Positions 17,173-62,677 of a stretch of 64,000 nucleotides of DNA are shown here, in pieces; position 1 is the first letter of the stretch, and every line of letters begins with the position of its first letter. The translations under genes and the position numbers were made by a program. The stretch spans positions 4,092,001 to 4,156,000 of the forward strand of contig JBHGNT010000001.1 of the NCBI GenBank assembly GCA_043228905.1. Reading direction: 5' to 3'. The notes under the pieces are model-generated. The model saw only the letters and a list, made by a program, of their open reading frames with translations. It had not been told where the DNA came from and ran no database searches. This stretch comes from Azolla caroliniana (Eukaryota; Plantae; Polypodiophyta).

Positions 17173-17696
17173 AATTGAAGTGCTAGACATCGAACCATAT
17201 GAATGACTAAGAACATTCATGAGGATTTGAAACAACACTTTCTTGCATTCTTCAAATGCCTTTCTTTTTGCACACTAATACCGCCCATATAAATATGAAA
17301 TCAAAACCTTTGCTACATCTACGTCTTTCTTAGATTGACAATACAAACTAAAAACTTTAACGCTTTGTTTCAATTCATAATTTTTAGATTTGTATTATCA
17401 ACGTCAGCAAGACATAAAAAGAAACAATATCAAGATCCATATAAAAATGTCTGCACTTCTTTGAAGTAAGGAAAATAATTCAATCCTAAAAAATTATTAT
17501 ACTCTAGAAAGGTGACAAATGAGGATCATACACGTTGATAATATAACTTCAATATACATATTCTAACATCCTACTTTTTAGATCGTGGCATTGATGACAT
17601 GAATTGAATATCCTTTTGATGTGATGTGATGTTTTGTAAATAACACTCTTGTTTGTCTAAATGATCTCAATTTAAAATGTACATGGACAATCACGT

Positions 17697-18975
17697 TGTC
17701 GTGGTATTCCGCGCGGATGCGTAGAAACGGGGCAGGACCACGGGGGTCTTGAACTGAGGAATCGAGAAAGGAGGAAGAGGTCCGCGAGTTGTGTACACAC
17801 AAACACCGTGAATCAAACAGAGAGGAGTAGGAAGGAGGTGGTCGTAGGTTTCAGACTCAATGCAGTACGAGAGAATAGCAACGCGAGAACGACACAAGGG
17901 AAAAAAAAACAACGTAAAGCAACGAAATAGATTGTCAATAGTAGTTAGGACGATGTCGCGTTGTTACGCGCGTGCGTGTAGAAGGGGCGGGACCACGAGG
18001 GTCTCGGACTAGGGAGTAGAGGAGAAAGAATAAGACATGATATGGAGGCTTAGCTCAAGAGGAGAAGAAGAAAGAATAAGATCACCACATAGAAGGAGAG
18101 ATCGGCCAAGGCAAGATGCTCAACAAGTTATATTAAAACGAACGAATGATTACAACAATGGTGGCCGCATGGGCCGCACCAAACGACTATGAGAAAACCC
18201 TAACCGAAGATGAATAAGGAAAACCCTAAACGAAACCCTAACCCTAAAACGGTAAGAACTCTAGACTAAGTGGTATACCTCTCATACGCAAAATAGGCAA
18301 CAACCTCATAAGTGACCCCTCCCTTCTTTTTATAGCCTAAGGAGGGAGGGACCTTACAATGTGGGATAAAATTTCCCCTCTTATTTCTATACACCATTTC
18401 CTAGTATACGTGTGCACATGTTGCACACCACCGACTTGCCCTTTCCACCCCGGTTTCCGCCTATGGACGAAAATCTTCACGCCAACGCACGTGTGAAGCG
18501 TAGGGAATACAACTGATTAGAGCCGGGAATAGAGCTTCGAGCTCTAGAGCAAACACACGGAAGAAAAGGGGATCTTTGGCGAGGAGCGCGCGAGCGTCTG
18601 ACGTGAACCGAGGGTTCCTCCCAGGGTTTGGTCGTAGAGGGTCGGAAGAGAACGAGTGAGCGAGCTACTTCTTCCTGTTCGGTAGCATCCTCTGCTTCTC
18701 AAGAAAAAAAAACGATCCCTCAAACAATCTGAGGCCGCCCCATTTATAGCACAAGGAGTAGCCGTTAGATCAAGTTTAATGACTCCTTGATATTCTCTCC
18801 TAGATTCTCTTCTTGATGTGGTCTCACTATCTCACCTTTGTTTCTCCGCCCCTACCCACGCGATATTAAATCCTCTAATAGTGTCTAACTTCCTAGTAAT
18901 CCACAAAACCTACCGACACCTAGTACTTACATAAATTAGTACAAAAAAAAGGGGTGCACTTGTACACACCTGCGT
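17697..18975 (-). mobile_element. Old, diverged family-W-like LTR remnant, interrupted by a solo LTR at 17954-18484
   Basis: Starts tgtcgtggtattccgcgcggatgcgtag...ggaccacggggg, a variant of the family-W terminus, preceded by ACGT. Its other end was not found. Confidence 0.55.
17954..18484 (-). mobile_element. Family-W solo LTR (subfamily resembling 54715-55400)
   Basis: tgtcgcgttgttacgcgcgtgcg...aatcttcacgcca termini; flanks ACGA / ACGC; internal AAACCCTA repeats and a TATA-like cttttatag. Confidence 0.75.
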
Positions 18976-19102
18976 TGTTGTGTTGTTATGCGCGTGCGTG
19001 GAGAAAGGCGGGACCACGGGGGTCATGGACTAGAGAGTGATGGAGCGTAGGAAGTCGTGCTTCACTGTTTCTGGGGCATCCCAGAGACACACCGGAAGCA
19101 AC

Positions 19103-19137
<35 letters not shown>

Positions 19138-20433
19138 TGCTTAACACCGACTCACGCACATGCACACGCACACTCGCACAACCCGACTCGCGCCTTATGT
19201 ACAGAAAACGCAGGAAAGGGTAAGCACCCGACGCCAACAACAACACGAATATACACAGACAAACGTATATATATATATATATATATATGAAGGGAAGAAT
19301 ACATTCCCGGCGTCGAGCCGGACTGACGTAGGTTATAGTAGTCGTCTGTTGTCAAACCGCCGTCGGGGAGCTCTCAGCTCGTCGCGCCGAGCAGGGTCTT
19401 GCACAGGAGGCCGAACCAAGCAACCCTAAGCGAAACATGCAGAAGGAGAAGAAGAAGAACCTAACTCTAAACCTAACGGTATACCCTCTAATGCAAAATG
19501 GGCAACCCTTTCACAAAGGGCGTTCCCTTCCTTTTATAAAACAAGGAAAGGGATGCGTTACAATGTGGGACAAATCCCGCCTTACATGGGATCGTCTGCC
19601 CCGACTTGACTACTCTTCGGCGCCATAAAGGCGCCCTCGATATTCACACTAAATGTACATGGGTGCGTTCACACGCTGCACCCCGTCAATGTAGCCAATG
19701 TTCCCGGTTTCCGCCTCTAGCCGAAATTCTTCACGACATCCGCCCCCACCTAACTGCACGTCCACCGGTACGTGCCAAATCCGGTTGAAGGGTGAGAGAT
19801 TTCGGCCGGTGAGAAACCGGTCTTTCGTGATCCGCATCCCGGCTCGCTACCGGTTCGACCCCTCGGCTTCGAGTCTTCCTTCGCGCTCGCCTCCCCGTAG
19901 GCTCGTTCGACCCGTCGATGGGTCCTCTGCCATGATCTCCGTAGTACGCGTACTTCCGTTGGCCCTTGTTCGGCCGTATGAACGCCCCGCTTCCCGCCGT
20001 ATGACCGATGTCATGGCAAGACTCGAACCCTTGACTTTATGCTACATGGGTCGAGCTCTTACCATTAGATCATGTATTGTAATACGTAGGATATTATTTT
20101 CATTTACATTTTATTATAGGAAATTAGTGTATATTCCAGATTTCTCTGGAACATTCTAGAAGCTTCAGGATTACTCCTGAAAACACTATAAAAGAGGGCA
20201 CTAGGCATTATGTTGAACCAAATTGGTTCAACACCAGTCTTAAGCCTCTTAGTCGATTTGTACTTATCTTTCATATAATATAAGAGCTGCTGTCATCATC
20301 TTATTTCCCTCTCTCTCTCTCCTCTTCTCACTTTCTCTCTCTCGGGAATCTTACGCAGTCCCGTCCTCTTAGTACTAATAGTACTACTCTTCTTAGTACT
20401 AATTCCATCTCTGTTTTAGTACTATTCCTGACA

Positions 20434-20447
20434 GTTTGAACCAATTT
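20434..20447 (+). other. Self-priming primer-binding site of the Tcn1-like element
   Basis: ttgaaccaattt right after the 5' LTR is complementary to aaattggttcaa (20220-20231), ~30 nt downstream of TATAAAA (20187-20193). There is no tRNA-type TGG PBS. Confidence 0.8.
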
Positions 20448-20502
20448 TTTCCTCTAGCCTACTTGTCACTCTCCCTCATCCTCCTACCCTTTTCCCTATA
20501 CT

Positions 20503-21660
20503 ATGGCTACTGTTAGCGCCCAAGAATACCAATCTGTTTTCTCCGAGCTACAGTGCCTAAAAGAAAAGTTTGTTGCCCTGGAACAAGAAAACCAACGGCT
20601 GATAGGGGATCTGCAACAAATCGCTCTAGAAAAACAACAAACGCAACAACAACATGGGGAGTTAGCGTTACGGGTACAACAACTCGAAGCAGCGTTGCAA
20701 CAACAAGGATCCAGTCCCCAAGGATTTCATAAAGAGCCCAAGATTGGACTTCCTGTGAAATTTGATGGAACGCGTTCGCAATTCCGGGGATTCCTTAATC
20801 AGGTACGCTTAGTCATCCAGATGCATCCTTCCCGATATCCCACTGATGCATCTCGAGTCGGCCTAATAGGCACGCTACTTAGCGGCTCAGCCTTGGCATG
20901 GTTTGCTCCGCTTCTAGAAAAACAATCACCCTTACTTAATAACTTTGAAGATTTTATTGGTGAGTTTAAAGCCTGCTTTGGAGACACCGACAGCATCAGG
21001 ACGGCGATCAACAAGATCCGGCGATTGCGTCAAGGCGATCGTCCAGCCTCTGCCTACGCGGCGGATTTCCGCCTACTTGCTTCAGATATACCCTGGGATG
21101 ATCAAGCACTAATGGAGCAGTTTCGCTATGGCTTGCGAAACGATGTCAAAGATCTACTTCTAACTTTCCCCGAAGAACCAAAGTCTCTTACGGAGGCAAT
21201 CAGTCGAGCAGTTCGATGTGACAACCGCCTTTTTGAACGGCGTTCAGAACGTCAATTACAGATACCACGCTCTAGGCCAGAGCCCACTTACGCCGCAGTC
21301 GCGGCTAAACCGTTTGCACGAGACACACCTCAAGCAAATACTTCGACACCGATGGAGATCGATACCATGCGTCGACGCGGCCCGTTATCGGAAGAAGAAA
21401 AGCAACGACGACGTGCCAATCGATTATGTCTTTATTGCGGTGGACCAGGACATATCGCCATCAATTGTCCCCATAGGCCAAGAAGACAGGTAAATCAAAT
21501 CGTCGCCTGTACTAAACCCGAGTCAATTCTTCCCTTTGGAGTATCTGATAGTATTAATAGTACTAATAGAGTGTCAGATAGTATTCATAGTACTAATAGC
21601 CCAAGTATCTCAAATAAATTTGAAATCCTTAGTCAATTAGATGAAGAGTTAAACGATTGA
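20503..21660 (+). CDS. gag: Gag of Tcn1-like chromovirus (coiled coil, capsid, CCHC knuckle)
   Basis: 385-aa ORF with KFDGTRSQFRGF, LRQGDRPASAYAADF, PMEID and CLYCGGPGHIAINC. Confidence 0.92.
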   Translation: MATVSAQEYQSVFSELQCLKEKFVALEQENQRLIGDLQQIALEKQQTQQQHGELALRVQQLEAALQQQGSSPQGFHKEPKIGLPVKFDGTRSQFRGFLNQVRLVIQMHPSRYPTDASRVGLIGTLLSGSALAWFAPLLEKQSPLLNNFEDFIGEFKACFGDTDSIRTAINKIRRLRQGDRPASAYAADFRLLASDIPWDDQALMEQFRYGLRNDVKDLLLTFPEEPKSLTEAISRAVRCDNRLFERRSERQLQIPRSRPEPTYAAVAAKPFARDTPQANTSTPMEIDTMRRRGPLSEEEKQRRRANRLCLYCGGPGHIAINCPHRPRRQVNQIVACTKPESILPFGVSDSINSTNRVSDSIHSTNSPSISNKFEILSQLDEELND

Positions 21661-21702
21661 GTCCAGCCAAAATAGGAGCCATTTGGTTGGACAGCAGCCC
21701 TA
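21648..21702 (+). other. -1 programmed ribosomal frameshift signal (G_TTA_AAC plus hairpin/pseudoknot)
   Basis: Pol is in the -1 frame relative to gag. Heptamer at 21648-21654, 6-nt spacer, 11-bp stem 21661-21671/21682-21692; the loop can pair with 21697-21702. Confidence 0.75.
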
Positions 21703-22294
21703 GATCTGTACAGCCCATTAGTGGTTCCATTCCTTCCAAGCAAGTTAGCAATGTGTTCCTAGCCCAAGTCATTGTTAGTACTAAAAGTACTCCCCCAGTA
21801 CCCGTCCTAGCACTTTTAGATTCCGGAGCTAATTCCTGTTTCATGGATCGAAATTTTGCCCAAGCTTCTCAGATATCCTTAAGAAAACTTCCTTGTCCCG
21901 CATCTGTAGTGGTCATTGATGGTCGTCCCATTGCTTCCGGGAATATTGTAGAAGAATCAGAACCCATTCAAGTTGTCCTAGGTAGTTTTGTGTGTATAAT
22001 ATCATTTAATATAATTAGTAGTCCAGAGCATCCCATTGTCCTAGGATTACCTTGGCTTGAATTACATAATCCAGCCATAGATTGGAGAACAAGAGAAGTC
22101 CGATATCGACCACCCCAAGAATCAACTCACCGAGTTTCGACCATTTCACTCCATCAACTACGCGAAGAAGGACCCAAGGAGGCAATGTTCCTATTTGCCA
22201 TATCAGTACATCCTTCTAGTACTATTAAGAAGGACTCCTCAATACAACTTCCGGCAAAATATCATCCTTATGCCGATGTATTTGACAAGGTAAA

Positions 22295-25200
22295 TGTTGG
22301 AAGCGAGGTCGTCAATGCGGAAGATCCAGAAGCATTCAGTTCTGTTCTGAATACCTGCGTATGAGAGATTGTAGGTCGTTGCACAGAGAGAGAGAGAGAG
22401 AGAGAGAGGCACAAAAGACTTTTTCTTTCATAAAGCAAATAATACAACAACCAACCTCACAAAGAGGTTACAAGGTCACTATATATAGTGACCGACTTAG
22501 GGCAACTACCCTTTATGCTAATTACATAAATGGCCACAACGGGATGGTGTGAATACGTCCATTATACACATGTATTCGACACTCCCCCGTAATGGGCGTA
22601 TACATGGGTTATCTAAGATTACAGGTATAGACTTAGGTTCTCGGACATATCAGCTTTGTTCGAGTCGGCAGGATCCGAAGACAGAAGACCGAACTGGTCG
22701 GGTCGGAACAGTTGAAGCCGATCATTAAGGAGCTGATGTCGGTTGTCGGGAACCATCCTGCTCTGTGTCCGGCTCTAACCGGACTGGTTTGTCGTTACGC
22801 CCATCTGATGCCGAAGAGACCGAAAACGGTCTGCCGAGAGACATTTGGTCATTCCATCTGCGACATTATCGGTTGTGGATATTTTCTCTAGACCGATTTT
22901 CCCTGAAATGACGCAGTCCCGAACGAAGTGATATCGAACGTCGATATGTTTGGAGGCGTTGTGGTGAACCGGATTTTTCGACAGGGCAACAGCACCTTGA
23001 CTGTCGCTGTAGACAACTGGAGTTGAGTCGTGGTCGACTTGCCGAAACGTGTGCGCCAGCCGACCGAGCCACAAAGCTTCTTTTGCTGCGTCGGACGCAG
23101 CTACATATTCTGCTTCGGTTGTTGAGGTCGCTGTGCACTCCTGAAGTTTCGACTTCCACGAGATTGCTCCATTGCCGAATTTGAAGCAGTATCCGGTTGT
23201 TGATTTTCGACTGTCTATACAGCCGGCGAAGTCCGAGTCGGTGTAACCGACTACACCTGAGGTTCGGTTCGGTCCGAAAAGAATGCCATGGTCTTTTGTG
23301 CCAGCCAGATATCTGAACACATGCTTGACTGCGTTCCAATGCGATCGGCCAGGATTGTGCATAAATCTGCTAACGACTCCTACGGCATGAGAGATGTCAG
23401 GCCGTGTCGCGACCATCAGGTACATAAGGGAGCCGACTGCCGGTGCATACGGTACCGACTTCATATCTTCCCCCTCCGAACCGGATGTCGGGCAGTCTCG
23501 CTGAGAGAGCCGAAGATTCATAGGGAGTGGGGTTGAAGCAGATTTGGCTGATTGCATGTTGAAGCGTTCCAAGACACGTCCGATATAGTCGGTCTGAGAC
23601 AAAAAAAGATGTCGTTTATCGCGATGCCGACTAATCTTCATGCCGAGTATGTGTCATGCCGGACCGAGGTCCTTCATGGCAAACTTCAACCGCAGTTGCC
23701 GAATGAGATCGGCAAGTTCGCCCGCGTGGCGTCCAGAAATTAGCATGTCGTCCACGTAAATGATGAGGAAGATGGGTGATCCATCTTGAGCTGTGTTGGT
23801 GAAGAGACAATGGTCCTCATCGCTTTTTGAGAAGCCGATCGATTGGATGAAGTCGTCGAACTTCTTGTACCATTGTCGCGGTGCCTGTTTGAGGCCGTAT
23901 AGACTCTTCCTGAGTCGGCAGACTAGATGTTCTTGGCCGGTTGCCACGAAGCCTTTTGGCTGCTCCATATAAATTTCCTCCTCGAGATCACCATGGAGGA
24001 AGGCTGTTTTGACATCTAGCTGAATCAGCTCCAAGTTGTCGGCTGCCACTACGCCGAGTAGGAAACGAAGGGTTGTCATTTTCACCACTGGTGAAAAAAT
24101 CTCGTCGAAGTCGACGCCATATTCTTGTCGGAAGCCCTTCGCAACTAATCTGGCCTTGTACTTTGGGGTGGTCGAATCAGACGTCTCTTTTAGTCGATAG
24201 ACCCACTTGCAAGGAAGAGCACGTCGGTTCCTAGGTAATTCGACCAGATCCCAAGTCTTGTTTGCCCGAATGGAGTGCATTTCCGACTCCATCGCCAGAT
24301 GCCAGGTGGCGGAATCGACAGATGTCGATGCTTCTTTGTAAGACGTCGGTTCGCCGGCGTCGGTGAAGAAAATTCCAGGAGAATACCTCTCCGGAGGTTG
24401 CGACAGTCGCTCGGATCGTCGAGGTATGATTGGACTGGTCGCATCGGGTATCGAGGTCGGATGGTCCGAAAGCGAATCATTCGGCTGTGCCGAGTCGGAG
24501 TTGTCCGAGTCGGTAGTGTAAGGTTCAGCTACCCGTGAAGCTGACCGTGTGTGGAGAGCGGGGCCTTCTTGAAGGGTCGGCACATCGGAGAATGTTACCC
24601 TTCGGACTTCGATCGGTTTTTCGACTGATGGATTCATAGCCGACTCGTTGAACACAACGTCCGAACTTCGAACGATTTGTCTGCGTTCGGGGTCCCAGAG
24701 TCGGTATCCCATTTCGCCGTCGGATCCATATCCAAGGAAAATGCATTTCCTGGACCGAGGTGCAAGTTTTCGGCAATCATCTTTCGGAATAAGGGCGTAC
24801 GCCTCGCATCCGAAGATCCTCAGCTTGTCGTAATTCGGCTTACTGCCGATCCATAGTTCCTGAGGAATTTGAAGTCCTAGAGGTCTACTTGGCGACATAT
24901 TGATTATGTGTACTGCCGTGAGTAGAGCCTCTGCCCAGAAGCCATCCGATAGTCCGGAGTGTTGGAGCATGGAAACTATCCGTTCTTGGATTGTCCGATT
25001 CATGCGTTCGGCAATCCCGTTTTGCTCCGGACTGTGTGGTGCCGTAAATTCACGTCGGATGCCGCGTTGTCGGCAGAATTTGACGAATTCTTCGGATTTG
25101 AACTCTCCCCCATTGTCTGTCCGAAAGCATTTCAGCTTTCGGTCGGTTTGATTTTCTACCATAGCGAGCCAGTCGGTGAAGATCGAGAAGACACGATCTT

Positions 25201-27750
25201 TAGTGCGAATTGGATAAGCCCACACCTTTCGAGTCGAGTCGTCAATAAAAGTGACGAAGTAAGAGGCACCGCCTAGAGACTGATGCGGCATTGGGCCACA
25301 GACGTCCGAATGGACTAAATCGAGAGGTCTCGTTTCTCTTGGTGCGGATGTCGGGTGTGATGCGGCTGCTTGTTTGCCATACTGGCAATGCTCGCAGAAT
25401 TGATGGTCCGAGAAGGAGAGTTTGGGGATGTATCCGGCTCTGGATAGGTGCGTGATGCCGGCCTTGCTGAGGTGTCCTAATCTTCGGTGCCATAGTGATG
25501 ACACAGGAATATCCACCAAAAACAGGTTACCCTCTCTGAGCGTAACATGTAACGGATACAAGGAGTGTATCTTAGGTCCTCTAGCAAGCAGAAGGTTCCC
25601 CCTGTGGAGTGTCCACCCTCCCGAAGAGAAACCGGCACGAATGCCGTCTTCATCTAGTTGTCCGACTGAGATCAATGGCCTTGAGAGCTCGGGTACATGT
25701 CGGACATTGTGGAGTACAAGTGTAGAGCCACCTGCAAGGTTGAGCTCTACTGTGCCGATTCCGATGATGTCACAGTGTTGCGAGTTGCCGACCCGAACTG
25801 AGTCGGAGTGACGGATCGTATATTGCCGAAATTGGGACCGATGAGGAGTCACATGAAATGACGCGCCCGAATCCAAGAGCCATGTGCTCGATTCTTCAGT
25901 CGTGAGCAGAACTTCTGATCCGACTTGATTTTCGATTGATAGTATGTTCGGGTCGTCTGGTAGCACATCAGCTGAGAAGCTGACGTAGTTGACCTCCTCA
26001 TGCCGGCCACTCTTCTTGTTGTTCTTGTTCTTGAGTGCGCGGCAATCGGCTTTGATGTGTCCGGGTTTCTTGCAATAGTTGCAGATTCGATTATCCCGTG
26101 ACTGGCTCCGTCTTCGCTGATTGTTCGGCGGTCGTGAGGAATCTCTTCCTCGTATGTTCGATCGGTCTGTCGAACCTTGTACTACGTAAGCGTCGTCTGT
26201 TGAGTCTTTGGCGAAAGACTTTCTCCGAGCTGCTTCGGTCAGGATTGCGCTCGTGACTTCGGAGTATTTAACAGCCGTGGTTGACGCGTTGCACACGGTT
26301 GTGACGAAAGTTTCCCATGATGAGGGAAGGCTGCTCATGAGTATCATTGCTCTGAGTTCATCCTCGATTGCCGTCCCCTGTGACGAGATTTGGGAGCTTA
26401 TGCTTTCGTACTCATTGAGGTGTGCTTGAACCGAGTCGGATTCTTTCATCCGCAAGTTGTAGAGGCGCCGGATCAGAAACATCTTCGTTGCGGCGACCTT
26501 CTTTTCGTAAGTGTCCGACAGTGTTTTCCACAGTTCGAATGCTGTCGTACACGATTGCACCGTAAAGTATACCGATTCCGATAGGTGCATCCGAATCGTG
26601 GCGCGGACGATTCTGTCCAGCTTCTGCCACTCAATTGGTTTGTATCCTTCTGGAGGTTCTTCGTTTTCGATGGGATCGATTTGCCCCTTGACTATGAGAT
26701 AGTCCTGCATTTGCTCCTTCCAGAAGTTAAAGTTCGATCCATCGAACTTTCGTAGACTCATTTCTGACGAGCCGGATGTTGATGCCATCAAATTCGGTTT
26801 CGGTTGACGAAGCTCGGTTCGGAGTTGACTGTGAACCTTGTTGGAGTGCAGCCGGTTGGCTCACCCGATATCGTTCTAGTCGGATTTGAACCCGAGTCGG
26901 TTCGGCTTCGGAACTTGCTCGAATTGACTCCGGTAACTTGAGGGACAGAACCGACTGGTCTTCCCGAATGTCGCCGAGTCGGAGTGAGCCCGGTTCGCTT
27001 CGGATATATGTGCCGAATACCGATTATTTGGAACCGATTATCTGGACCGATTCTGCTTCGGGTGGCTGCAGCGACGAGAGAGACAGATCCAACTGATCCT
27101 CTCGAATGTCGATCAGCCGGATGAAGCACGAATTGGGGTTGTTGTCTTGAGACCGATCTGCACCGGGTGGTTACAACGAGCAGCGTTTGGTGACCTCTTC
27201 GGATGCCGTTTAACCGAATGGAGCACGATCGTGTCAATGATGCACAAGGGGATTTCACCTCGAGCGGTTACGATCACAAGGAACAGAGTACAACCTGAAG
27301 GCTTACTCCAAGCAAGAGGATCTAACGCGATGAGGTGCAAACCTCGTTTTTGTTCTTCTTCTCTCTTTCTTCGAATGACGCGAATACTGTGCAGGCCGAG
27401 ATGGAGTGAAGAACCGAATGCTGTGCAGGCGGTGATGACGGCCGAACCTTCGCTCTGATACCAGATGTTGGAAGCGAGGTCGTCAATGCGGAAGATCCAG
27501 AAGCATTCAGTTCTGTTCTGAATACCTGCGTATGAGAGATTGTAGGTCGTTGCACAGAGAGAGAGAGAGAGAGAGAGGCACAAAAGACTTTTTCTTTCAT
27601 AAAGCAAATAATACAACAACCAACCTCACAAAGAGGTTACAAGGTCACTATATATAGTGACCGACTTAGGGCAACTACCCTTTATGCTAATTACATAAAT
27701 GGCCACAACGGGATGGTGTGAATACGTCCATTATACACATGTATTCGACA
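22295..27750 (-). mobile_element. Ty1/Copia element, family A copy 1
   Basis: LTRs 27466-27750 (5') and 22295-22581 (3') differ only in (GA)n length. TSD GTAAA (22290-22294 / 27751-27755); tRNA-iMet PBS (rc gctctgatacca, 27452-27463); PPT at 22582. Confidence 0.96.
22775..26788 (-). pseudogene. Copia-A1 gag-pol polyprotein with one premature stop in RT
   Basis: Nearly identical to the 1337-aa ORF at 34983-38996, but CGA>TGA at 23654-23656 (GPA*HILG vs GPARHILG). Confidence 0.93.
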
Positions 27751-47769: not shown

Positions 47770-48683
47770 AACGGAAAGGTGAGCGTGAACATGGGTTGCG
47801 CGGTTCGGAGGGAGCGCGTGAAAGGTCAGAGGAGGATCCTCCACACCGTTCCGGAGACCATGGCGGTTTGAGCCGACGTGGCGACGTAAGACCAGGGAGA
47901 AGGAAGGTGGCGGCAAGAGGACGAAGGCAACGCGAAACATCATGGGATGGCAATCAGGACAACACGAATGATCGACGGAGGCCAAGCGGGCCACTACGGG
48001 CATTCCTCAAGCGGAGGACATCGGGCATACGGCGGAGAGCGGGGCGTGCATACGACCGAACAAGGGCTAGAGAAAATACGTGTAGTACGGAGATCACGGC
48101 GAAGGACCCATCGACGGGTCGAATGAGCCTACGGGGAGGAAAGCGCGAAGGAAGAACCGAAGCCGACGGTTCAAACTGGCAACGAGCTGAGATGCGGATT
48201 ACGGAAGACCGGTTTCTCAACGGCCGAAATCTCTCACCGTTCACTAGATTTGGCATGTACCGGTGGACGTGCGGTTAGGTGGGAGCGGATGTCGTGAAGA
48301 ATTTTGGCCAAAGGCGGAAACCGGAAAATATTGGTTACATCGGTGGGGTGCACCATGTGCACTCACCCTCGTATAATTGTGTGAATAATAGGAGTTAAGT
48401 CGGGACGAAGAATCCCATGTAAATCGGGATTTATCCAACATTGTAATGCATCCCTCTCCTTGTTCTATAAAAGGAAGGGATGGTCCCTTGTAGAGGGTTG
48501 CCCATTTTGTGTTAGAGGGTATACCGTTAGATTTAGGGTTAGTTTCTTCTTCTTCTTCTTTGCGGGGAGGTCGATGGTTGAGGGTTGTTTCTGCTCGGTC
48601 TCCTATGCAAGACCCCGCTTTGCGTGACAAGCCTGAGAGCTCCCTGAACGACGGCTTGGCAGCAGACTGCTGTTGTAACCTAC

Positions 48684-51600: not shown

Positions 51601-53801
51601 CCCGCGCAGGAAGCCGAGGAGACGACTTACGTGCAAAGAGAAAGGGAAGAAGAAGGTGTCGGATTCCGGCACGGAAAGGAACGAGTCAGACCGACGCGAG
51701 TCCGACTCCGAGGGAACCGGTGACGGGTCTTTAAAGGTGAAGACCGCGTCAACCGAGAAGGCCTCGACATCGGCTAATGGGAGATTACGCCGATCTACCC
51801 GCCAAAAGAACCCAGTTGTGTGGTTCGGATACAACGAGTACATGGCGCATCATTATGCGTACATGACCCGTGTAGCGGAAGTACGTGAGCCGGAGAGCTA
51901 CGCAGAAGCGGCTAAAGACGCGAATTGGCGTGCCGCGATGGAGGAAGAGATGCACGCATTAGCGGAGAACGAGACCTGGGAGCTGGTTGAAGCACCGAAG
52001 GGTGCGAAGCCGATCGGGTGTAGATGGGTGTACAAAGTCAAGTACAACACCGATGGCTCGGTCAACAAGTACAAGGCTCGGCTAGTGGCAAAGGGCTACG
52101 CGCAGAAGCAGGACATCGACTACGATGAGACGTTTGCGCCGGTCGCGAAGATGACGACCGTCCGTGTTTTGCTCACGGTAGCCGCGGCCAAGGGGTGGCA
52201 CCTACATCAAATGGATGTAAAGAATGTGTTCCTGCAAGGTGACCTTGAGGAACAAGTGTACATGGTACAACCCCCCGGATTTCACTCTGGAATGAACTCC
52301 TCGGCAGTATGCCGACTGAAGAAGTCCCTTTACGGACTGAAGCAAGCCCCGCGTGCCTGGAACGCGAAGATCACGCAACAACTGCGTCGGATGGGCTTCG
52401 TCACGTCAAAATCAGACTCTTCCCTGTTCATCCGGAAAGGTCGACTCAGACCGGTTAGTAATTTACTCTATGTTGATGACTTGGTCATCACCGGCGCCGA
52501 CCTAGGTGAAATCGACCACGTGAAGCTCCTGCTTGCGGCATCGTTCGACATGAAGGATCTAGGGGACCTTCATTACTTCCTTGGGATCGAAGTAATCCGT
52601 ACCCCCGAAGGCATATTGATCAGCCAACGTCACTACGTGCTGAGTATGCTCTTCAAATTCGGGATGGCCGACTGTAAGACCGTCTCGACTCCTCTAGACA
52701 GAACTGTCAAGCTTCGTCCCAATACGGGAAAGGTATGCGACCCGACGAGGTTCCGACAAATTGTCGGAAGCCTCATATACTTGACCATCACCCGACCCGA
52801 CCTCAGTTACCCGGTCGGGTGATCAGTCAGTTCATGGCGCGACCTACCGAGGAGCACCTTCAATGTATGCAACGCATACTTCGGTATGTCAACGACACTA
52901 AGGACCGTGGACTGCTATATCGGACCGGTGCAGCCGCGCAGTTAGTCGGCTACACCGATGCTGATTGGGCTGGCAATGCCGCCGATCGCCGATCCACGAC
53001 TGGATACGCGTTCTCCCTCGGGAGTGCCGCAATAGCGTGGAGCAGTAAGAAGCAGCCGACAGTTGCACTGTCGAGCACCGAAGCGGAGTACCGAGGAGCG
53101 GCTGTCGCGACATGCGAAGCCATATGGTTGAAGCGGCTACTTAAGGACCTGCAAGAGGAAATGTCAGATCCGACGACGATCTACTGCGACAACCTCAACA
53201 GCATCCAACTCGCGAAGAACCCCGTCTTCCATGCACGGACCAAGCACATTGAGGTGCACTACCATTTTGTCCGTGAGCATGTCCTTTCAGGTGAAATCGA
53301 ACTTCAGTATGTTCCGACGGATCGGCAGACTGCCGACATCTTCACCAAGCCTCTTGGTCTGGACAAGTTGCGACAATTCTTAGGTGCGCTCGGATTGCGT
53401 CCCCTTGACATGCCGAACTTGAGGGGGAGAACAGTCCCGAACGACCGAGCAAGGCAGCAGGAAAGGAGTGGAGACCGCGACACCGAGTCAGTTGACAAGT
53501 TCGACTTCGGATCGGCTGAAGAAGCCGAGGGCGGACCCGGGGAAAAGTTCGGAAGCGAACAGAAGGGGAGCAACCGAAGGAGAGAGCCGAAGCCAACCAC
53601 GCATGGGGAAGATGACGCCATCGAGGGCGAGAAGACCGAAGACGAGTTGGAGACAGCCAACTCGGACGAGAGCCAAAACCGATCAGAGGTAGCCGAGTCG
53701 GTTCGGATGTTTGATTCAGACACGCTGAATCAACCGAGGTCCAAGCGGAAGAAAAGGCAGCAGGAGAAGCATCAACACCGCAAAAGCAGAAGAGCTGATA
53801 A
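48684..53801 (+). mobile_element. Ty1/Copia element, family B copy 2 (diverged subfamily), 3' end deleted
   Basis: 5' LTR 48684-49070 (tgttgag...ttttca); PBS tggtatcagagc at 49071. No final PPT or 3' LTR is seen; the sequence joins the host LTR through filler DNA at ~53802. Confidence 0.88.
49143..53801 (+). pseudogene. Copia-B2 gag-pol with frameshifts (~51420, ~52820) and a post-RNase H extension
   Basis: ORFs 49143-51521, 51404-52822 and 52735-53862 are collinear with the Copia-B1 protein. Confidence 0.88.
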
Positions 53802-54714
53802 GGGAATGTATTCTTCCCCATGGTCCGGCTCGAAGCCGGGAATGTATTCTTCCCCTTTGTAATGTACATACTAGTATCCGTCAGTGCATACTCGTGTCTC
53901 TGTTTGTGTGGGTGTTTTGGTGTTCCCTTCCCTGCGTTGCCTGTACATAAGGGCGTGAGTTGGGTCGGCGCAGTGTGTGTGTGTGTGTGTGTGTGACTCG
54001 GCGTCAAGGGCGCGCTCCCTCTCTTTCTCCCTCCCTTTCTCCCTCTCTTTCTCTCTCTCTCTCTCTCTCTCGTTCGGTTGCTTCTGGAACGCGTCTGGAA
54101 TCGTCTTCTCGGCTTCCCTTTTTCCCTCGTCTGAGACACCTGTGGTCCCGCCCTTCTACACGTTGTCCATTCGCAACTCTTTGCCTTCGTCCCCTCGCTG
54201 CCACTGATCATCACTCTAGGCCGACCGCCGGCTCCTGGGCCGACCGTTGGAGTCTCTAGAACCGGTGTGAAGGATCCTCCTCGGGCTCGTCGTATCTCTG
54301 ACCCTTATCCTGGGTCTTCCTTCTTTCGCAAGCCGAGAGGGTGGCTCGCTCCACACCCTCTCCCGTGCTACTGACGTATGGTGTCCATGGCCTCTTCGTA
54401 GGCCTCCTCTTCCTCCCTCTCGGAATGGTTATCCGGAAGCCCGCTCCGCCCGGTTCTCGTCCGTCATTCTCTGGATTGCCGGGTCCCGTTCTCTTGTCGC
54501 CACCGATCTCTCTTATAGGACTCACGCCGGCACTCGGGCCGACAGCCGGATCAACGTAAGGATCTCCGTAGGACCGGTCTTCGTTCTCCTCTTCCTCCTT
54601 TGTACTTCTCCCTAACTTGTCGTTGCTCTCCTCGCGTACCCGCCTCCATCTCTCATCTCTCTAGGTCCCACACCGGCGCTCGTTGCCGGCTGCCTGAGTC
54701 TCTAGATGAGACGT

Positions 54715-55400
54715 TGTCGTGAAGATTTTCATCCACAAGCGGAAACCCGAGCAACGAGAGCCAAAGAGCGATGTGCAACGTTGCACACATACATAATGTA
54801 TTTGTAATAGTAATAAAGGTATAAAGGTGATGTGGTTGTACGCACATCCACGCGAGAGAGAGAGAGAGAGAGGTACTATGCGGTACATAGGTACCTAGTC
54901 ATTTGTGAGGAGGTGGGAGTTAAGGGGCCATCAATCTCACCCTCCCCCAAATCAAGGCAAATATCCCCTTTGAATGAAAGGGGATATTTTAGTCTCACTT
55001 TTGTAAACGGTCTTCCCTCCTTGTGCTATAAAAGGAGAGAGAAGGCACCATTGTGGGGGTTACCTATTTTGAGTGTGCAAGGTATACCACATAGGTCGAG
55101 CGTTAGGGTTCGGTTAGGGTTTTCTTCTTGGGTTTTCCTTTAGGGTTTTCTTATAGTCGTTTGGTGCGGCCATGGCGGCCACCATTGTAAAGCGTTTATG
55201 TTTTCTTAATCGAACTTCTTGTTGAGTATCTTGACTCCATCTTCTTCATCTTCTTCTATCATAATGTCATATTCATTCTCTTCTCCTCTTGAGCTATGAG
55301 CTAATCTTCCATTCGTTGTCTTAACCTTTCTCCTCTTCTCCCTAGTCCAAGACCCCTGTGGTCCCGCCCCTTCCACACGCACGCGCGTAACAACGCGACA
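54715..55400 (+). mobile_element. Family-W solo LTR with perfect 4-bp TSD ACGT
   Basis: tgtcgtgaagatttt...gtaacaacgcgaca; ACGT at 54711-54714 and 55401-55404. Confidence 0.88.
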
Positions 55401-55673
55401 ACGTGGTGTTTCCGTCCCGTAATGATTTGCGGACGCTTGTTCGGGGTACCACTCCCAAGCATGTTCGGTGAGAAGCATCTGGTTTGTGATCAACCAAGCC
55501 CCGCCTAGGCTTGGTTCTCCAATGTCCGGAGTTTCGGCTTTGATGCCGACCTCTCCGGACTCGTTCTGAACCCTTGATCACTTCCCTTCCAATTCCCGAC
55601 CTTTGCCCGGTCGGTCTTTTTCCCCATGTAAAAGAGGGCGGCTCGTCCTGCACCCTCTCCCGTATCGACATCT

Positions 55674-56814
55674 TCATGCTGAATCCAGCCCCGATCGAAC
55701 GATCCACGACCGGATTACGCTCCATCCGAATCGGAATGCCGATCTTCCCGTGCCGCCTCCGTCCTCGGCCGTTTCCCATCCCTCTTCGCTGGCATCGTGC
55801 CAGGACTCCTTGTCGATGCCTTCCTTCTCTCCGGTCTCATGTCGGCACACGGGCACGACCGCCGGAGTCTCCGGAATTCGCGTGGAGGGCTCTTCTTCGC
55901 TCCCGACCTTGTCCTCGGTCGGCAATTCTCTACAAGTCGAGAGGGCGTTTTGTTCCGCACCCTCTCCCGTGGTACCATGGTACCGATCTTCCGCCATCTC
56001 GTGGGGCAAGACCGTCTCCTCGGTCGCAGCTTGAGGCCTCGATCTTTCGTCTTCCTCGAGCATCGCCTTGAGAGCTACGTACGCCTCCGCAATCCTAGCC
56101 CCAACGCCAACCCTTGCCAACTCCCTTTGCCGTTCGGCCTCTTCCCGCTGTGATGGCACGCCGTCGCGCGCCGTCGCGCGCCTTCCTCTTAGCCTTCTCG
56201 GCTCGCTCATCGTCTAGCCGTCGACACACCCTTCCGACCTTCGACCAGTCCTCTATAAGCCCATTCGCTCCTTCATCGTCTTCGAGCTCCATCCCGATGG
56301 CCTCCCGTTCCGCTCGGTCGATCGACCTAACAAACAATAGGACTTTGTCTGCCCCGACCAAACCTTGTTCCCGCTCCGGGAGCTGAGCAAGCCGTCGCTC
56401 GAACTCTCAGAACGCCTTCGTCGCGCCCCGATGGGTCTTTGCTGATGCTACCCACTGGTCGAAGTCGTGTCGTCCCCGGCTCTTCCGCCATCCTCCATAT
56501 GCCTGCAGGAGCTCCTCTTCAAAGGCCTCCCACGAACTATGAGCTTGTTGGAGCTCCTTCACTTCCGCGTGCATACGGACGGCGACAGCCCGACAGAAGA
56601 ACTCCAGCCTCAACGCTTCATCCACGTCTCGCTCCTCCATTTCCGCATTGTAGGCTTCCAAGTAAGATGGGACTTTGTCCCCGTTGAAATGGCCGACTCT
56701 TTCGACCACTCGCTCAACCGCTTGTTGCGCTGCTTCTCGCCTCATCACCACTCGTGCCGACTCCAACACCAGTTCGGCCATCATTGCCGCGAGGTCGTCG
56801 TCTTCCAACTCCAT
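55674..56814 (-). pseudogene. gag: Gag-like ORF of family-W copy 2, broken by a stop (CGA>TGA at 56407-56409) and a frameshift
   Basis: MELEDDDLAAMMAELVLESARVVMRRE... is homologous to 44549-45487. It retains the VRSIDRAEREAIGMELEDDEGANGLIEDW segment missing in copy 1. Confidence 0.7.
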
Positions 56815-57797
56815 CCTCCCTTGCCGCCCTTCACGTCGCGTTCACCAAAGATGTAGCGTTATTACACGCGTGCGTGTAGAAGGGCGGGACCACGGGGGTC
56901 TCGGACTAGGGAAGAAAGGAGAACAAGAAGACGATTCCGGGCGCGTTCCGGAAGCAACCGAACGGGAGAGAGAAAGAGAGAGAGAGCGCGCTTGACACCG
57001 ACTCACACCCACACACACAAACACCACGCCGACCCAACTCACGCCCTTATGTACAGAAGCAGAGGTAAGAGAACACCAAAAACACCCACACAAACACCAG
57101 ACCCCAACAGAGACATGAATATGCATAGACAGACGCAAATGTATATATATAAAGGGAGGAATACATTCCCGGCTTCGAGACGGACCAAGGTAGGTTACAA
57201 CAATCGTTTGCTGCCAAGCCGCCAGTCGGGGGGGGAGCTCACGGGCTTGTCGCGCCGAGCGGGGTCTTGTGGAGGAGACGAGGTGACACAAACCCTAACG
57301 AACACAAAGGGGGGGGGGGCGGGGAAGAAGAAGAAGAGGAAGAAGAAATGTAGTTAACCCTTAAACTAACGGTATACCCTCTAACGCAAAATGGGCAACC
57401 CTTCTACAAGGGACCATCCCTTCCTTTTATAGAACAAGGAGAGGGATGCGTTACAATGTGGGATAAATCCCGATTTACATGAGATTCTTTGTCCCGACTT
57501 GACTACTCTTCGGCGCCATAAGGCGCTCTCGTTATTCACACTAAATGTACAAGGGTGATCACACATGCTGCACCCCGTCGATATAGCCAACATTTCCCAG
57601 TTTCCGTCTCTAGCCAAAATTCTTCACGACAACGCACGCGCGTAACAACGCGACACCGGCCTTGCCGCCGATGAGTCCTCGTCGCTCTACTCTTGCCACT
57701 TGTCGAAACAACCGTAGACCCTCCTTACCATGGCCCAGTCTGCCGTGAGCCCTTCATCTGTTTCCAACAGGAGACACACCTTCTCCCGGTGTCGCGT

Positions 57798-57870
57798 TGT
57801 CGCGTTGTTACGCGCGTGCGTGGAGAACAAGGCAGGACCACTAGGGTCTTGGACCGAGGAATAGGTGGGG

Positions 57871-57915
<45 letters not shown>

Positions 57916-60691
57916 GCTCACTCACGTATAGACAAAGAAGCGCACGGGGACGCACGGCACAACAACACAGGAGACACGAGTTGAGAACACTAGAGTATAT
58001 GTGTAACAACATGCTTGTATTTGTTGTATGCAGACGACTCGAACGGTTACAACCGACCAGGTCGGCGAGGCGGATGCCGACGCCTGATCACCCACGCACA
58101 TAGGAGAGCAAGATGGAGATTCTGCCGGAAGCACACAGGCGTTCCACTGAGCAAAATCAACCTCCTGAGAGCCTGCGCAAAAGACAGCAATGGAGAACGA
58201 CAGAGAAGAAGAGCTCGGTCCTAGTCCGACAACACTTCGTTCCCTCTAGCGTGCTATCTCCATCTCTCCCCGTCTCCCTCTCTTTTATAGCTCAAGGAGG
58301 GAGGCCGTCCTACCCGTTTACATCACATTAATTCTTTGTCCTTTCGGACAGAGATACTCCTCGATTTCCCCTATAGAATATTGCTACCTAGGATTTAACC
58401 CTTGCGCCTACCTATCTACTTTACGACAAGGGACGTGCCCACGTGTAAGGGCCGATTCACACACATTATACACGATTTGCGCTTGGGGACGGTTTTCTTC
58501 ACGACATCCGCCCCCACCTAACCGTGCATCCACCGGTATGCGCCAAAATCGGGTTCCTATGGGAGAAAACTGATCCTTGCTTTTATTCCTCGTTTACCGG
58601 TTCATCCTCTGCCTCGGGCTGCTCGTCGTCGCTGTCCATGCCCCCTAGCTCCGGCTCCCCGTCGTGCCGTTTCTTGAACACTTTGATCCTCTTCCCCGCT
58701 ACCGGTATCGCCATTCTCGTACCATCGAGCTCCGCGAGATGGTACGTCCCATTGCCGTTGGCGCCTGTTACCACGTAAGGCCCGAACCACCTCCTCGCAA
58801 ACTTCCGCGTGGCCCTGTGCTGATTGTCGAGGCTGCTGTTGTATACTAGCACCTAGTCGCCTTCCTCGATCTTCCTTGGCCTGGACCGGTGTGTTCGGTC
58901 GAACCGGGCTATGTTCCTTATCCTCGCTACTCGAAGTTTCTCCGCGGCTCGCTCTACGTCCTCCGGCCTCCGCTCGAGCTGTCGAATCCGCGCCGCCAAT
59001 AGTTCCTCCCGGCTCATCTCATCCCTCCAGCCCACCATGGCCCACGAGGAGATCGTTCGCTCTGTTGGCATGATCGGCTTCTGTCCGAACATTAGCTCAG
59101 CTGGCATGAACCCGGTTACCGAACTGTGCGTAGTCCGGTGCGCCCACAAGGCATAAGGTAGTAGCCGTGGCCAGTCCCCGACTCGGCCTCCGCACGCCCG
59201 TACTAGCGCTTTGACAATTGGCCCGTGTCCGCGCTCCACCTTCCCGTTCGCCTCCGGATTGTACGCTGTGGTGAGCGAAAGTTTGACTCCTAGCCGGTCG
59301 AACAACTCTTTGTCCTCTTCTGCGTCCAACTCACCACGGTCAGCCACGATCTTCCGTACGCACCCGTATCGGCATACCACGTCCTCAATCAAAAACCGGC
59401 ATACGGCTGCCGTCGTCTTGTTCTGCAGGGCTTGGCCTTCAACCTGGTTCGTTAGATCTTCCCGAGCCAGCACCAGATACCACATCTGTCCTACCCCCAT
59501 TGGCATCGTCACCAAATCCACCATCCACTTGAAGTGGACGGTCGGAGGGTAGGTCGGGTGAAGCTCGTCCCGGTGTCGGATCATGGAGTGCACCTGGCAG
59601 CTTTCGCAAGTCGTCACGAACCAATGCACGTCCCGGTATAGTCCCGACCACTAGTACTTCCCCTTTAGCTTTTCGAACGTGGCCCACATTCCACGGTGTC
59701 TAGCCCACGGGCTATCGTGGTACGCCGCCAGCAAATCCTCCTGTTCCCCCTGCTTCGCGACCACTCGGAGCGGGATGCCGTTCCTCTTCTTCGGGTGCTT
59801 CCAGATGTATCTGTCCCGAAGAAAGAATCGGTAGGCTTTCTTCCGAATCCGGTTGGCCTCATTCGTTGTCCATGCCGCGTCGGGTGTCATTGTTTTCAGG
59901 AACCCGCCGATCTGCAGTCACTCCCCGTCGTACTTGCTCTCGTGGAAGTCGTTAAGCGTTGGAGAGCATTCCCCGTTGGTTGTCACGTAAGCCGCCTCGA
60001 AGAAGTCCACGCCGACTTCCTCGTCCTCTGAAACTATGTCGCCGTCGTTTTCGAACCTCGCCCTTGAAAGCATGTCGGCCATGGTGTTGTCTTTCCCAGA
60101 AATGTGTCGTATTTCCGAATTCAGGGACTTGATGTACGCTATCCACCTGAGCATCGCCAGGTTCGGCGTCGCGCATCCGGAAACCATGCCAGGAATTGGC
60201 AGGCAGTCTGTCTCGATAATTACCTCTGCCCCGATCAGGTAGTCTTTATCGGCCTTTATCGCCGAAACGATACCCCAGAGCTCGCGTTTAACCTAGGCGT
60301 ATCCTTGCTGTCGCTCGCTGAGGACCTTCGCGCCGAACCGGATCGGGAAACGTATGCGCAAAAGAAAACTATGGAGAACGACAGAGAAGAAGAGCTTGGT
60401 CCTAGTCCGACAGCACTTCGTCCCCCTTCCCTAGCGCGCGATCCCCTCTCTCCCCGTCTCCCTCTCCTTTTATAGCTCAAGGAGGGAGGCCGTTTCACTC
60501 GTTTACATCACATTAATTCTCTGTCCTTTCAGACAGAGATACTCCTCGATTCTCCCTATAGAATATTGCTACCTAGGATTCGACTTTTGTGCCTACCTAT
60601 CTACTATACAACAAGGGGCGTGCCTACGTGTAAGGGCCGGTTCACACACGCTATACACGGTTTGCGCCTGGGGACGGTTTTCTTCACGACA
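57798..60691 (-). mobile_element. Family-W autonomous-type remnant: 3' LTR 57798-58506, RH-INT 58583-~60345, partial 5' LTR ~60350-60691
   Basis: PPT tccgcccccacc at 58507; 60350-60691 duplicates ~58175-58506; flanks GCGT / GCGT. Confidence 0.8.
58583..60345 (-). pseudogene. Decayed Gypsy RNase H (C-terminal part) and integrase, no chromodomain
   Basis: RFGAKVLS..Y, HISGKDNTMADMLSR, H..H..C..C zinc finger, WMVDL / ADRGE / NGKVERGH DDE core, WFGPY motif and an acidic tail; several stops. Confidence 0.85.
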
Positions 60692-62315
60692 GCGTGTAGA
60701 AAGAGGCGAGACCACGGGGGCCTTGACCCGAGGAGCGAGAGAGTGAGAAGAGAAGACCCGCAGATATGCAACATGGAGAAGGAAAGAGATACAAACGACA
60801 CACTTAATACATGTAACAGTAGATTACAATATTCAGAGATTGCCAACTCCGACGATTACAACCGGCAAGGCGGCGATGGACCCGACACGGGAACCCTACT
60901 CACGCACATGGACAAAACACACTCAACTCAAAGAAACAAAAAGGGGGAGAGCCTCTGCTGGAAGCACATGGGGGCTGTCCACGAAGCCGAGGCAGCGAAC
61001 TCTCGACACCCACAGAGACCGATGATTGGAGGAGAAGAGAGAGCTCCTCACACAGTTCTGCAGCAACACTTCGTCCTCGCCAACGCGCGATATTTCTATC
61101 TTCCTCCTCTCCCTCCTTAAATAGTTCGCAAAAAGGGGGGAGGGGGTGCCCCTTTCTCCCTAGTCAAATCGCTTTATTCCCTGTCCCTTCTAACAGAGAT
61201 ACGCACAATCCCCTCATAAATGTGTACTTTATGAATCATGTACAAATATCAAGATATCCATTCACGCGTCCATCCATGTAAGAGCCGGTCCATGCGCCGT
61301 TTGCTTCGATTCCGCCCATGGCCGGTTTTCTTCACAACATCCACCCCCACCAAACCGCGCATCCTCCTGCATGCGCCAGAGACGGGTAGATACCGAAGAA
61401 AACCGGCTTCACTCGTCGTTCTCTGATTCTCCATCGGGCCCAAACTGATCGTCGTTGTCGCTCCGGCTCGTAGGCTCCGGCTCGTCTTCGAACCGCTTCT
61501 TGAACGCTTTGATCCGCTTCCCGGCCACTGGCACCGCTAACCGTGTCCCGTTGAGCTCCGCGAGGTGGTTGTGCCGTTGTCGTTCACGCTTGTCACCGTG
61601 TAGGGCCCGAACCATCTCCTAGCGAACTTTCGCACCGCCTTGTGCTGATTGTCGAGGCTGCTGTCGTATACCAAGACCCAGTCGCCTTCCTCGATCTTCT
61701 TTGGTCGCAACCGGTGCGTCCGGTTGAATCGGGTCTTGTTCCGTTCCCTTGCCACTCGCAGCTTTTCCTTCGCTTGTTTCACGTCCTTCGGCCTCCACTC
61801 GAGTTTCCGAATCCGTGCCGCCAGCAACTCCTCCCGGCTCATTTCGTCCTTCCAATCTACTGCCGCCCATGAAGAAATCGTCCGTTCCACTGGCATGATC
61901 GGCTGGAAGCACATGGGTTGTCCACGAAGCAAAGGCACCGAACTCCCGACACCCACAGAGACCGACGATCGAAGGAGAAGAGAGAGCTCCTCACACAGTT
62001 CTGCAACAACACTTCGTCCTCGCCAACACGCGATATTTCTATCTTCCTCCTCTCCCTCCTTAAATAGTTCGGAAAAGGGGGGGGGGGGGGGGGGGTGCCC
62101 CTTTCTCCCTAGTCAAATCGCTTTATTCCCTGTCCCTTCTGACAGAGATACGCACGATCCCCTCATAAATGTGTACTACTTAGTATTTACATTAGCCAAT
62201 CCATTTATGAATCATGTACAAATATCAAGATATCCATTCACGCGTCCATCCGTGTAAGAGCCGGTCCATGCGCCCTTTGCTCCGATTCCGCCCATGGCCG
62301 GTTTTCTTCACGACA

Positions 62316-62677
62316 CCGCACAGTCGTCATCTTTGCCACCGGGGGAAATCTCTCTTCGTAGTCGGCTTCATGTGTTTGTGCGTATCCTTTCGCTATGAGT
62401 CGAGTTTTGTAGCGGTTTACGGAACCGCCTGCGTTATACTTCACCTTGTAGATCCATCTGCAGTCGATCGCCTTCTTGCGTGGTGAGTGGGGGACAAGGT
62501 CCCATGTCTTATTTTTGGAGAGTGCTTGCATCTCCTCATTCATCGCTTCAACCCATTTGGGGTCCTTCACGGCTTTGGAAAACGTTTCCAGCTCTCGTAC
62601 TGTCGCTACCTTCATCATAAAGGCGTAATGGTACACCATATAATCGTTGTCACCGAATCGGCTTACGGGGTTCTTTT
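62316..62677 (-). pseudogene. Copia-B-like RT fragment
   Basis: KKNPVSRFGDNDYMVYHYAFM...WVEAMNEEM...WIYKVKY...VAKMTTVR. Confidence 0.8.

What the first reader, a model, noticed from the sequence alone, without database searches (positions are those of the whole stretch)
17693..62319. A Gypsy family that integrates at CpG-centred sites with 4-bp TSDs (NCGN)
Seen: every family-W LTR/host junction has a 4-mer with CG in the middle. The sites are ACGT (17693); ACGA/ACGC (17950/18485); GCGT/ACGT (18972/46278); CCGG/CCGG (47766/57656); ACGT/ACGC (54160/57632); ACGT/ACGT (54711/55401); CCGG/CCGC (57786/62316); GCGT/GCGT (57794/60692). That is 15/15 flanks at 8 loci. The Copia and chromovirus elements in the same DNA have unrelated 5-bp TSDs (ACCGA, GTAAA, GTATG, ATCCC). 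Assuming CpG at 10% of positions, 8/8 by chance is ~1e-8. Established: most plant LTR elements make 5-bp TSDs with weak preference, while CGCG-specific 4-bp integration is known for Drosophila ZAM. Inference: this chromodomain-less integrase reads CpG (possibly methyl-CpG or CpG-step DNA shape), steering the family into CG-rich transposon DNA and away from the AT-rich gene space. I cannot tell whether this has been reported for the clade.
Basis: partly seen in the sequence, partly recalled or inferred. Interest (0 to 1): 0.85.

Follow-up and report, generated by a model that had tools for sequence, protein, structure and literature searches.

The report
CpG-targeting Phygy retrotransposon beyond moss
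A family of plant jumping genes inserts almost only at four-base sites centred on CG; this habit is real but already published for the moss 'Phygy' group to which the family likely belongs, and only the host (likely a fern) and a slightly sharper site motif are new.

Summary
The CG-centred target is real. All 15 four-mers are as stated. In 54 metagenome contigs, 37 of 40 distinct host junctions read NCGN, and the 3 misses are CG-to-TG/CA decay products. Four sequencing runs give a flank consensus ending in ACGT. The motif sharpens to VCGB (first base T in 0 of 37). CG at mirror positions from both LTR ends implies a 4-bp duplication.

It is not new. REXdb (PMC6317226) reports 4-bp NCGN TSDs in 100% of 186 Phygy elements. 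This family has Physcomitrium and Riccia homologues, no chromodomain, no extra RNase H, and a primer site recalled as tRNA-Trp; direct placement against REXdb sequences was not possible. The best mechanism (inferred) is intrinsic readout by the integrase of a bent CG step, an extreme form of foamy-virus VYRB. Methyl-CpG reading is untested. Steering into CG-rich DNA is unsupported: 20 of 39 flanks are under 40% GC.

The parts
17693..17696 (.). Host flank ACGT of LTR A, in AT-rich DNA (29% GC, CpG 1.2%)
17697..18971 (-). LTR A, diverged subfamily, split by B; its last ~50 bases and purine tract are missing
   Evidence: aligns to L049 and L005
17954..18484 (-). Solo LTR B, flanks ACGA/ACGC; host roughly contiguous, so probable TSD with one mismatch
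18976..46277 (-). Non-autonomous element C: LTRs 18976-19738 and 45525-46277 (96% identical), holding a chromovirus and three Copia elements; flanks GCGT/ACGT lie in non-contiguous host DNA
19739..19754 (-). Polypurine tract directly abutting the 3' LTR of C
45503..45520 (-). 18-nt primer-binding site, 4 nt from the 5' LTR; identity as tRNA-Trp is recalled
46282..47765 (-). Broken gag-protease region (DUF4100) and pol start of an autonomous-type copy; gag continues at 57660-57785
47766..57655 (+). 5'-deleted element E: internal 3' region 47770-48289; 3' LTR in pieces (48290-48683, 53818-54159, 57636-57655); right flank CCGG at 57656. The left CCGG at 47766 is a deletion joint
54164..57631 (-). 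3'-deleted element D inside the LTR of E; 5' LTR 56852-57631, primer site 56830-56847; flanks ACGT/ACGC with contiguous host
54715..55400 (+). Solo LTR H with perfect 4-bp TSD ACGT/ACGT (five-base flanks differ)
57790..62315 (-). Deleted element F (3' LTR, integrase tail 61340-61898, partial 5' LTR); flanks CCGG/CCGC in non-contiguous host DNA
57798..60691 (-). Deleted element G: 3' LTR 57798-58506, broken RNase H-integrase 58586-60352 ending in an acidic tail with no chromodomain, partial 5' LTR; flanks GCGT/GCGT
20009..31126 (+). Control: chromovirus with chromodomain, identical LTRs, 5-bp TSD ACCGA
13095..14654 (-). Host glycosyltransferase reading frame (66% GC, CpG 9.7%), used to place the host

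Best explanation
This is a chromodomain-less Gypsy retrotransposon family, likely of the Phygy clade, that inserts at CG-centred four-base sites, and its integrase likely picks these sites itself by bending the target at the central CG step and reading the bases. Shown: NCGN (VCGB) flanks at both LTR ends, absence of chromodomain and extra RNase H, homology to moss, liverwort and fern elements. Inferred from the mirror position of CG and two perfect solo-LTR pairs: a 4-bp staggered cut. Inferred from retroviral integrases: the symmetric intasome kinks the target at the central pyrimidine-purine step, as in foamy virus (VYRB), and because TA and CA/TG steps are nearly excluded, bending alone is not enough, so base contacts are added, most likely by the conserved basic loop of the C-terminal domain (QH..RKF.RRWFGPY) and the DRGE motif of the core. 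The choice is local and likely needs no methylation; the few TG/CA flanks are likely later decay of methylated CpG.
For: 37 of 40 distinct 3' junctions and 6 of 9 5' junctions are NCGN; flank consensus ends in ACGT in 4 of 4 runs. Among the 37, T at position 1 or A at position 4 occurs at 1 of 74 positions, against 26-32% T before CG in three backgrounds (p about 1e-8 at 25%). The same avoidance and the VYRB consensus are described for 4-bp retroviral integrases (PMC4422553 passages). The C-terminal loop sets base choice at the cut in MLV and PFV (PMC4477651 passages). A model of a natural homologue (P0062, pLDDT 84.8) matches the PFV intasome chain over all domains (Z 25.1, rmsd 3.9, 359 aligned). 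Loop residues Q, H, K, F, R, W are kept in 87-94 of 94 homologues that carry the W.GPY/F motif (of 120). Seven of 39 targets sit in DNA with at most one other CpG in 200 bases. 16 of 24 transitions between C's LTRs are at CpG, enough to explain the 3 of 40 decayed flanks. REXdb: Phygy 4 bp, NCGN, 100% of 186.
Against: No Physcomitrium RT or integrase was among my hits, and the REXdb sequence files could not be read, so Phygy membership rests on gag-protease homology and features. No residue-level match of the loop to PFV Arg329 was obtained (one search found no PDB hit for the window's C-terminal piece). By the MLV paper's account the loop acts at the cut, and effects at the centre do not imply direct contact, so the residues that read CG are a guess. 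Only 1 of 4 metagenome solo LTRs of the searched subfamily has matching flanks (L042; L026, L050 and L051 do not), which I put down to mis-joined assemblies or recombination without testing it. The 54 loci seem to come from one set of assemblies and favour unique flanks and young copies. No methylation data were available.
Confidence: 0.62

Rival explanations
1. The integrase, or a bound host factor, prefers methylated CpG, so the motif steers the family into silenced DNA without a chromodomain.
For: 13 of 40 flanks lie in retrotransposon DNA and 7 of the window's 8 loci are nested in other elements. No flank scanned lay inside a recognisable host coding domain at the junction, although the one exon I measured is CpG-rich. 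Target CpGs show TG/CA decay. Phygy is reported enriched in liverwort centromeres (PMC12885004 passage) and nested in Tcn1 elements in moss (PMC6911290 passage).
Against: Decay shows methylation after insertion only. Nesting and absence from exons also follow from selection. One insertion lies about 70 bases from an Alba reading frame. ZAM prefers CGCG through its own integrase in vitro (PMC2527525 abstract), in an insect that has next to no CpG methylation (recalled).
Confidence: 0.15
2. Pure shape readout: the CG step is chosen only because it unstacks easily, with no base-specific contact.
For: Central YR preference and avoidance of T/A at the TSD edges are general for 4-bp integrases and match VCGB.
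Against: Shape alone allows TA and CA/TG; TA was seen at the centre in 0 of 40 junctions and TG/CA in 3 of 40. Other 4-bp Gypsy families use TATA or ATAT (PMC3276498 passages).
Confidence: 0.17
3. Artefact: the 4-mers belong to the LTR ends, or come from self-insertion into the family's own CG-rich LTR tips.
For: LTR tips are rich in GCGT/ACGC, and four window flanks (54160, 57632, 57794, 60692) lie in such tips; one flank (47766) is a deletion joint.
Against: Internal-side junctions show a purine tract or T[AC]TT, never NCGN; the outer bases vary between loci; most metagenome flanks are unrelated DNA.
Confidence: 0.02

Closest known systems
Phygy (Ty3/gypsy, non-chromovirus; Neumann et al. 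2019, PMC6317226; passages, section 9 and supplementary table 5 read)
   Same: 4-bp NCGN target; no chromodomain; no extra RNase H; gag-protease homologous to Physcomitrium proteins (15 of 120 listed hits, 39-50% identity); primer site recalled as tRNA-Trp.
   Different: Described there as specific to Physcomitrella; this host's gene groups with neither mosses nor liverworts. Motif here refined to VCGB. Abundant non-autonomous copies keep only the start of gag plus a long non-coding 3' region.
Prototype foamy virus and MLV integrases (PMC4422553, PMC4477651; passages read)
   Same: 4-bp duplication, palindromic site, central pyrimidine-purine step, T and A avoided at the edges; same domain layout.
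   Different: Their preference is weak (VYRB); here the centre is nearly always CG.
ZAM of Drosophila (PMC2527525; abstract read)
   Same: Gypsy element with a CG-rich target (CGCGCg) attributed to its integrase; 4-bp TSD (PMC3276498 table).
   Different: Different lineage (recalled: an env-bearing errantivirus); needs a CGCG run and a second binding site, whereas here the commonest site is ACGT and CGCG runs are not required.
Selgy and TatI (REXdb table)
   Same: Non-chromovirus lineages with 4-bp TSDs; TatI also uses tRNA-Trp.
   Different: No NCGN preference listed; Selgy uses tRNA-Ala; TatI carries an extra RNase H, absent here.

Membership tests
Phygy | 4-bp TSD with NCGN | tested here: met
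   37 of 40 and 6 of 9 junctions; perfect pairs at 54711/55401 and L042
Phygy | Gypsy order RT-RH-INT without chromodomain | tested here: met
   No Pfam hit in the window's integrase tail; no Chromo in P0001, P0003, P0027 or in the precomputed domains of 120 listed homologues
Phygy | No additional RNase H | tested here: met
   One RH region in P0001, P0003, P0027; window RH-INT is colinear with P0001 561-1141 at 77%
Phygy | tRNA-Trp primer site | tested here: inconclusive
   18-nt site conserved in 12 loci and 2 window copies; its complement is the small RNA listed as miR894, mapped to Gypsy repeats in PMC5846777. The Trp identity is recalled; no tRNA gene was found to check it
Phygy | Monophyly with REXdb Phygy on RT/RH/INT trees | not testable with these tools
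   REXdb FASTA too large; no Physcomitrium pol among named hits. Indirect: gag-protease hits Physcomitrium at E 1e-45 to 1e-37, and the Physcomitrium protein P0209 hits only this family in the window; RH-INT groups with Riccia elements (99 support), far from the window's chromovirus
Phygy | Length 7.7-10 kb with coding sequence filling the interior | tested here: inconclusive
   No whole autonomous copy in the window or loci; integrase ends about 80 bases before the LTR in G; copies C, D, E are non-autonomous with long non-coding DNA
Chromovirus (Tcn1 and others) | Chromodomain after integrase | tested here: not met
   RH-INT only about 22% identical to the window's chromovirus
Tat (incl. TatI) | Additional RNase H domain | tested here: not met
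   aRH-less Tat Z1/Z2 lineages (PMC10508981 passages) were not tested against
Selgy | tRNA-Ala primer site, about 5 kb, variable TSD sequence | tested here: not met
   TSD sequence is fixed at the centre; primer identity is recalled as Trp

The most novel reading that the evidence does not exclude
The integrase of this bryophyte-to-fern Gypsy clade is a direct reader of methylated CpG at the centre of its cut site, giving a chromodomain-free route into silenced DNA that has been kept across seed-free land plants.
Probability: 0.13. Interest if true: 0.75.

Novelty: new member of a known kind. Interest (0 to 1): 0.22.

Why it matters
The preference itself is published. What this adds is modest. 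NCGN targeting is seen outside Physcomitrella, in a host that is likely a fern, which suggests the trait is old in seed-free plants. The motif is VCGB, a sharpened form of the rule known for 4-bp retroviral integrases. REXdb names Phygy as the only plant LTR lineage with a sequence-specific target, and my searches found no study of how it works, so a biochemical test is open. If methylation mattered it would be a new way for a retroelement to find silent chromatin.

Tried and rejected
No whole genome is held, so no genome-wide TSD histogram or background. Viral contigs held neither the LTR end nor the integrase. The first read-laying run buried the junction rows; the short-stretch call gave only a consensus, no base counts. 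Looking for a tRNA gene to confirm the primer: none in the window and none in 31 of 31 viral-contig matches; a paper on onion small RNAs did not link miR894 to tRNA-Trp (passages). The Atlas gave only generic Gypsy clusters. Names for deeper relatives: of 20 looked up, named ones were Riccia or 'hypothetical', so no claim on fungal or other origin. The host-gene tree was the quick version with a long branch. PMC7466625 (passages) says nothing on Phygy or TSDs. Earlier-findings look-ups by words and by sequence were empty. Rejected: 5-bp TSD (CG sits at mirror positions; five-base flanks differ at H and L042); 4-mers as LTR termini; '15/15 flanks at 8 loci' as seven TSD pairs; extended palindrome beyond a weak G at +5 (15 of 43 rows, which still include L038 and the duplicates).

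Full report
Observation. All 15 four-mers are at the stated places and have a central CG. Self-comparison and domain scans show a 46-kb nest of retrotransposons beside AT-rich host DNA. The family has LTRs of about 530-780 bases running TGTCGTGAAG...AACGCGACA. The chromovirus and three Copia elements have unrelated 5-bp TSDs as stated. The 4-mers are not LTR sequence: on the internal side the same ends abut a purine tract or a 4-nt spacer plus primer site.

Audit of the pairs. Solo LTR H (54715-55400) has a clean ACGT/ACGT. D (ACGT/ACGC) sits in a contiguous host LTR, though only TGTC of its own 3' LTR is left. B (ACGA/ACGC) sits in a roughly contiguous host LTR. G (GCGT/GCGT) leaves its host LTR 16 bases short, or 57790-57797 is a tandem duplication of one LTR end. 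C and F have unrelated DNA on their two sides, so each likely joins two separate insertions by recombination or has lost flanking DNA. Consistent with that, all four mismatches fall on the outer bases and never on the mutable CG. At 47766 host and element share 10 bases, and three relatives hold 68 more bases of gag across the joint: it is a deletion breakpoint. The window thus overstates the paired evidence, but 14 of 15 flanks remain junctions.

Independent test. The 21-nt LTR end occurs in 54 metagenome contigs. Twelve continue into the primer site; 42 into host DNA, 40 after removing 2 duplicates. 37 of 40 are NCGN, while CG at any other of seven offsets occurs in 0-3 of 40. The misses are ATGT, CCAG and CCAT, each carrying TG or CA at the centre. 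At the other LTR end, 6 of 9 host junctions are NCGN, with ATGT, ACAT and CCTT as misses; two junctions of the diverged A subfamily read ATGT and ACAT. In four sequencing runs the loose ends at the LTR terminus (49, 33, 40, 6 contigs) give a consensus ending in CACGT. CG at +2,+3 after one end and -3,-2 before the other fixes the duplication at 4 bases; L042 is a second perfect pair. Three other solo LTRs in these assemblies have non-matching flanks, unexplained but expected from mis-joins. The motif is VCGB: first base A 23, C 10, G 4, T 0; last base T 24, C 6, G 6, A 1, against 26-32% T before CG in background. Between C's two LTRs, 16 of 24 transitions are at CpG, so later methyl-CpG decay can account for the misses.

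What it is. The integrase's named relatives are Riccia elements (31 of 120 listed). The gag-protease piece carries DUF4100 and hits Physcomitrium proteins (15 of 120 listed) and an Adiantum protein. Full-length natural homologues read RT-RH-INT with no chromodomain and no second RNase H. On an RH-INT tree the window copy groups with Riccia elements and far from the chromovirus (2 of 41 reference rows left out as fused). The host gene groups with two unnamed proteins and outside the moss and liverwort clades on a quick tree with a long branch; earlier notes on this genome call the host a likely fern, which I did not confirm.

What is known. Neumann et al. 2019 (PMC6317226; passages, section 9 and supplementary table 5 read) state that Phygy elements prefer NCGN and list 186 elements, 4 bp in 100%, tRNA-Trp primer in 81%, no extra domain. 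Its element table and FASTA could not be read and bear on membership. PMC6911290 (passages) also reports GC-rich centres in 4-bp TSDs. A whole-word search for NCGN with retrotransposon found only the REXdb paper and one unrelated paper. Searches for Phygy with fern (two listings, not read) and for CpG, methylated and target site duplication (listings only) showed no mechanistic study. The primer site here is the complement of the RNA listed as miR894 (PMC5846777 passages); that it is the tRNA-Trp end is recalled.

Mechanism. Shown: the motif and the domain content. Known from retroviruses: 4-bp integrases kink the target at a central pyrimidine-purine step, give VYRB, and avoid T and A at the edges (PMC4422553 passages); the C-terminal beta1-beta2 loop and the core alpha2 region set base choice (PMC4477651 passages). 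A model of natural homologue P0062 matches the foamy-virus intasome chain best. In the model the segment between the first two C-terminal strands (residues 414-430) is the conserved loop, and DRGE aligns with PFV DQGA. Inferred: the same geometry plus added base contacts narrows YR to CG. Which residues do so is a guess; deeper relatives of unknown target also have basic loops.

Regional steering. Flanks average 41% GC and 3.5% CpG; 20 of 39 are under 40% GC and 7 have at most one other CpG in 200 bases. Thirteen of 40 lie in retrotransposon DNA and one lies near an Alba reading frame. The window's glycosyltransferase exon has more CpG than the TE cluster. Assembly favours unique flanks, so this is not a fair genome sample, but it gives no support for CG-rich steering. 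Methylation of targets before insertion is untested.

Verdict. Real, strong and already described for the clade: a new member with a wider host range and a refined motif. Interest 0.22.

Noticed in passing
window 18976-46277, 47770-57655, 54164-57631; L022, L044, L045: A common non-autonomous subfamily keeps LTRs, primer site, purine tract and only the start of gag, followed by a long 3' region built of repeated 100-170-base units.
   Followed up: partly
window 45521-45524, 56848-56851; 12 loci: A 4-nt spacer (TATT or TCTT; 5 nt in L038) separates the 5' LTR from the primer site while the purine tract abuts the 3' LTR directly, which would give unequal ends for integrase processing.
   Followed up: no
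window 45503-45520: The primer site is the exact complement of an 18-nt RNA filed as miR894 and mapped to Gypsy repeats in a conifer (PMC5846777), hinting at tRNA-fragment silencing and at related elements in gymnosperms.
   Followed up: partly
L013 1112 (minus strand): Two LTRs stand head to tail separated only by ACGT, as if one copy inserted at the TSD of another.
   Followed up: no
window 60354/60355 and 61898/61899: Elements G and F both have a deletion running from pol into the middle of the 5' LTR.
   Followed up: no
window 20009-31126, 22294-27750, 34004-39476: Very young nested insertions: chromovirus LTRs 425 of 425 identical, Copia LTRs 99-100%, inside an element whose LTRs differ by 4%.
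   Followed up: partly
window 16936-17181: Three tandem copies of an 82-base AT-rich unit just before the TE cluster.
   Followed up: no
L002 718-1403: An insertion about 70 bases from an Alba-domain reading frame.
   Followed up: partly
window 48684-53817: A further Copia element inside LTR E whose right end and TSD I could not find.
   Followed up: no
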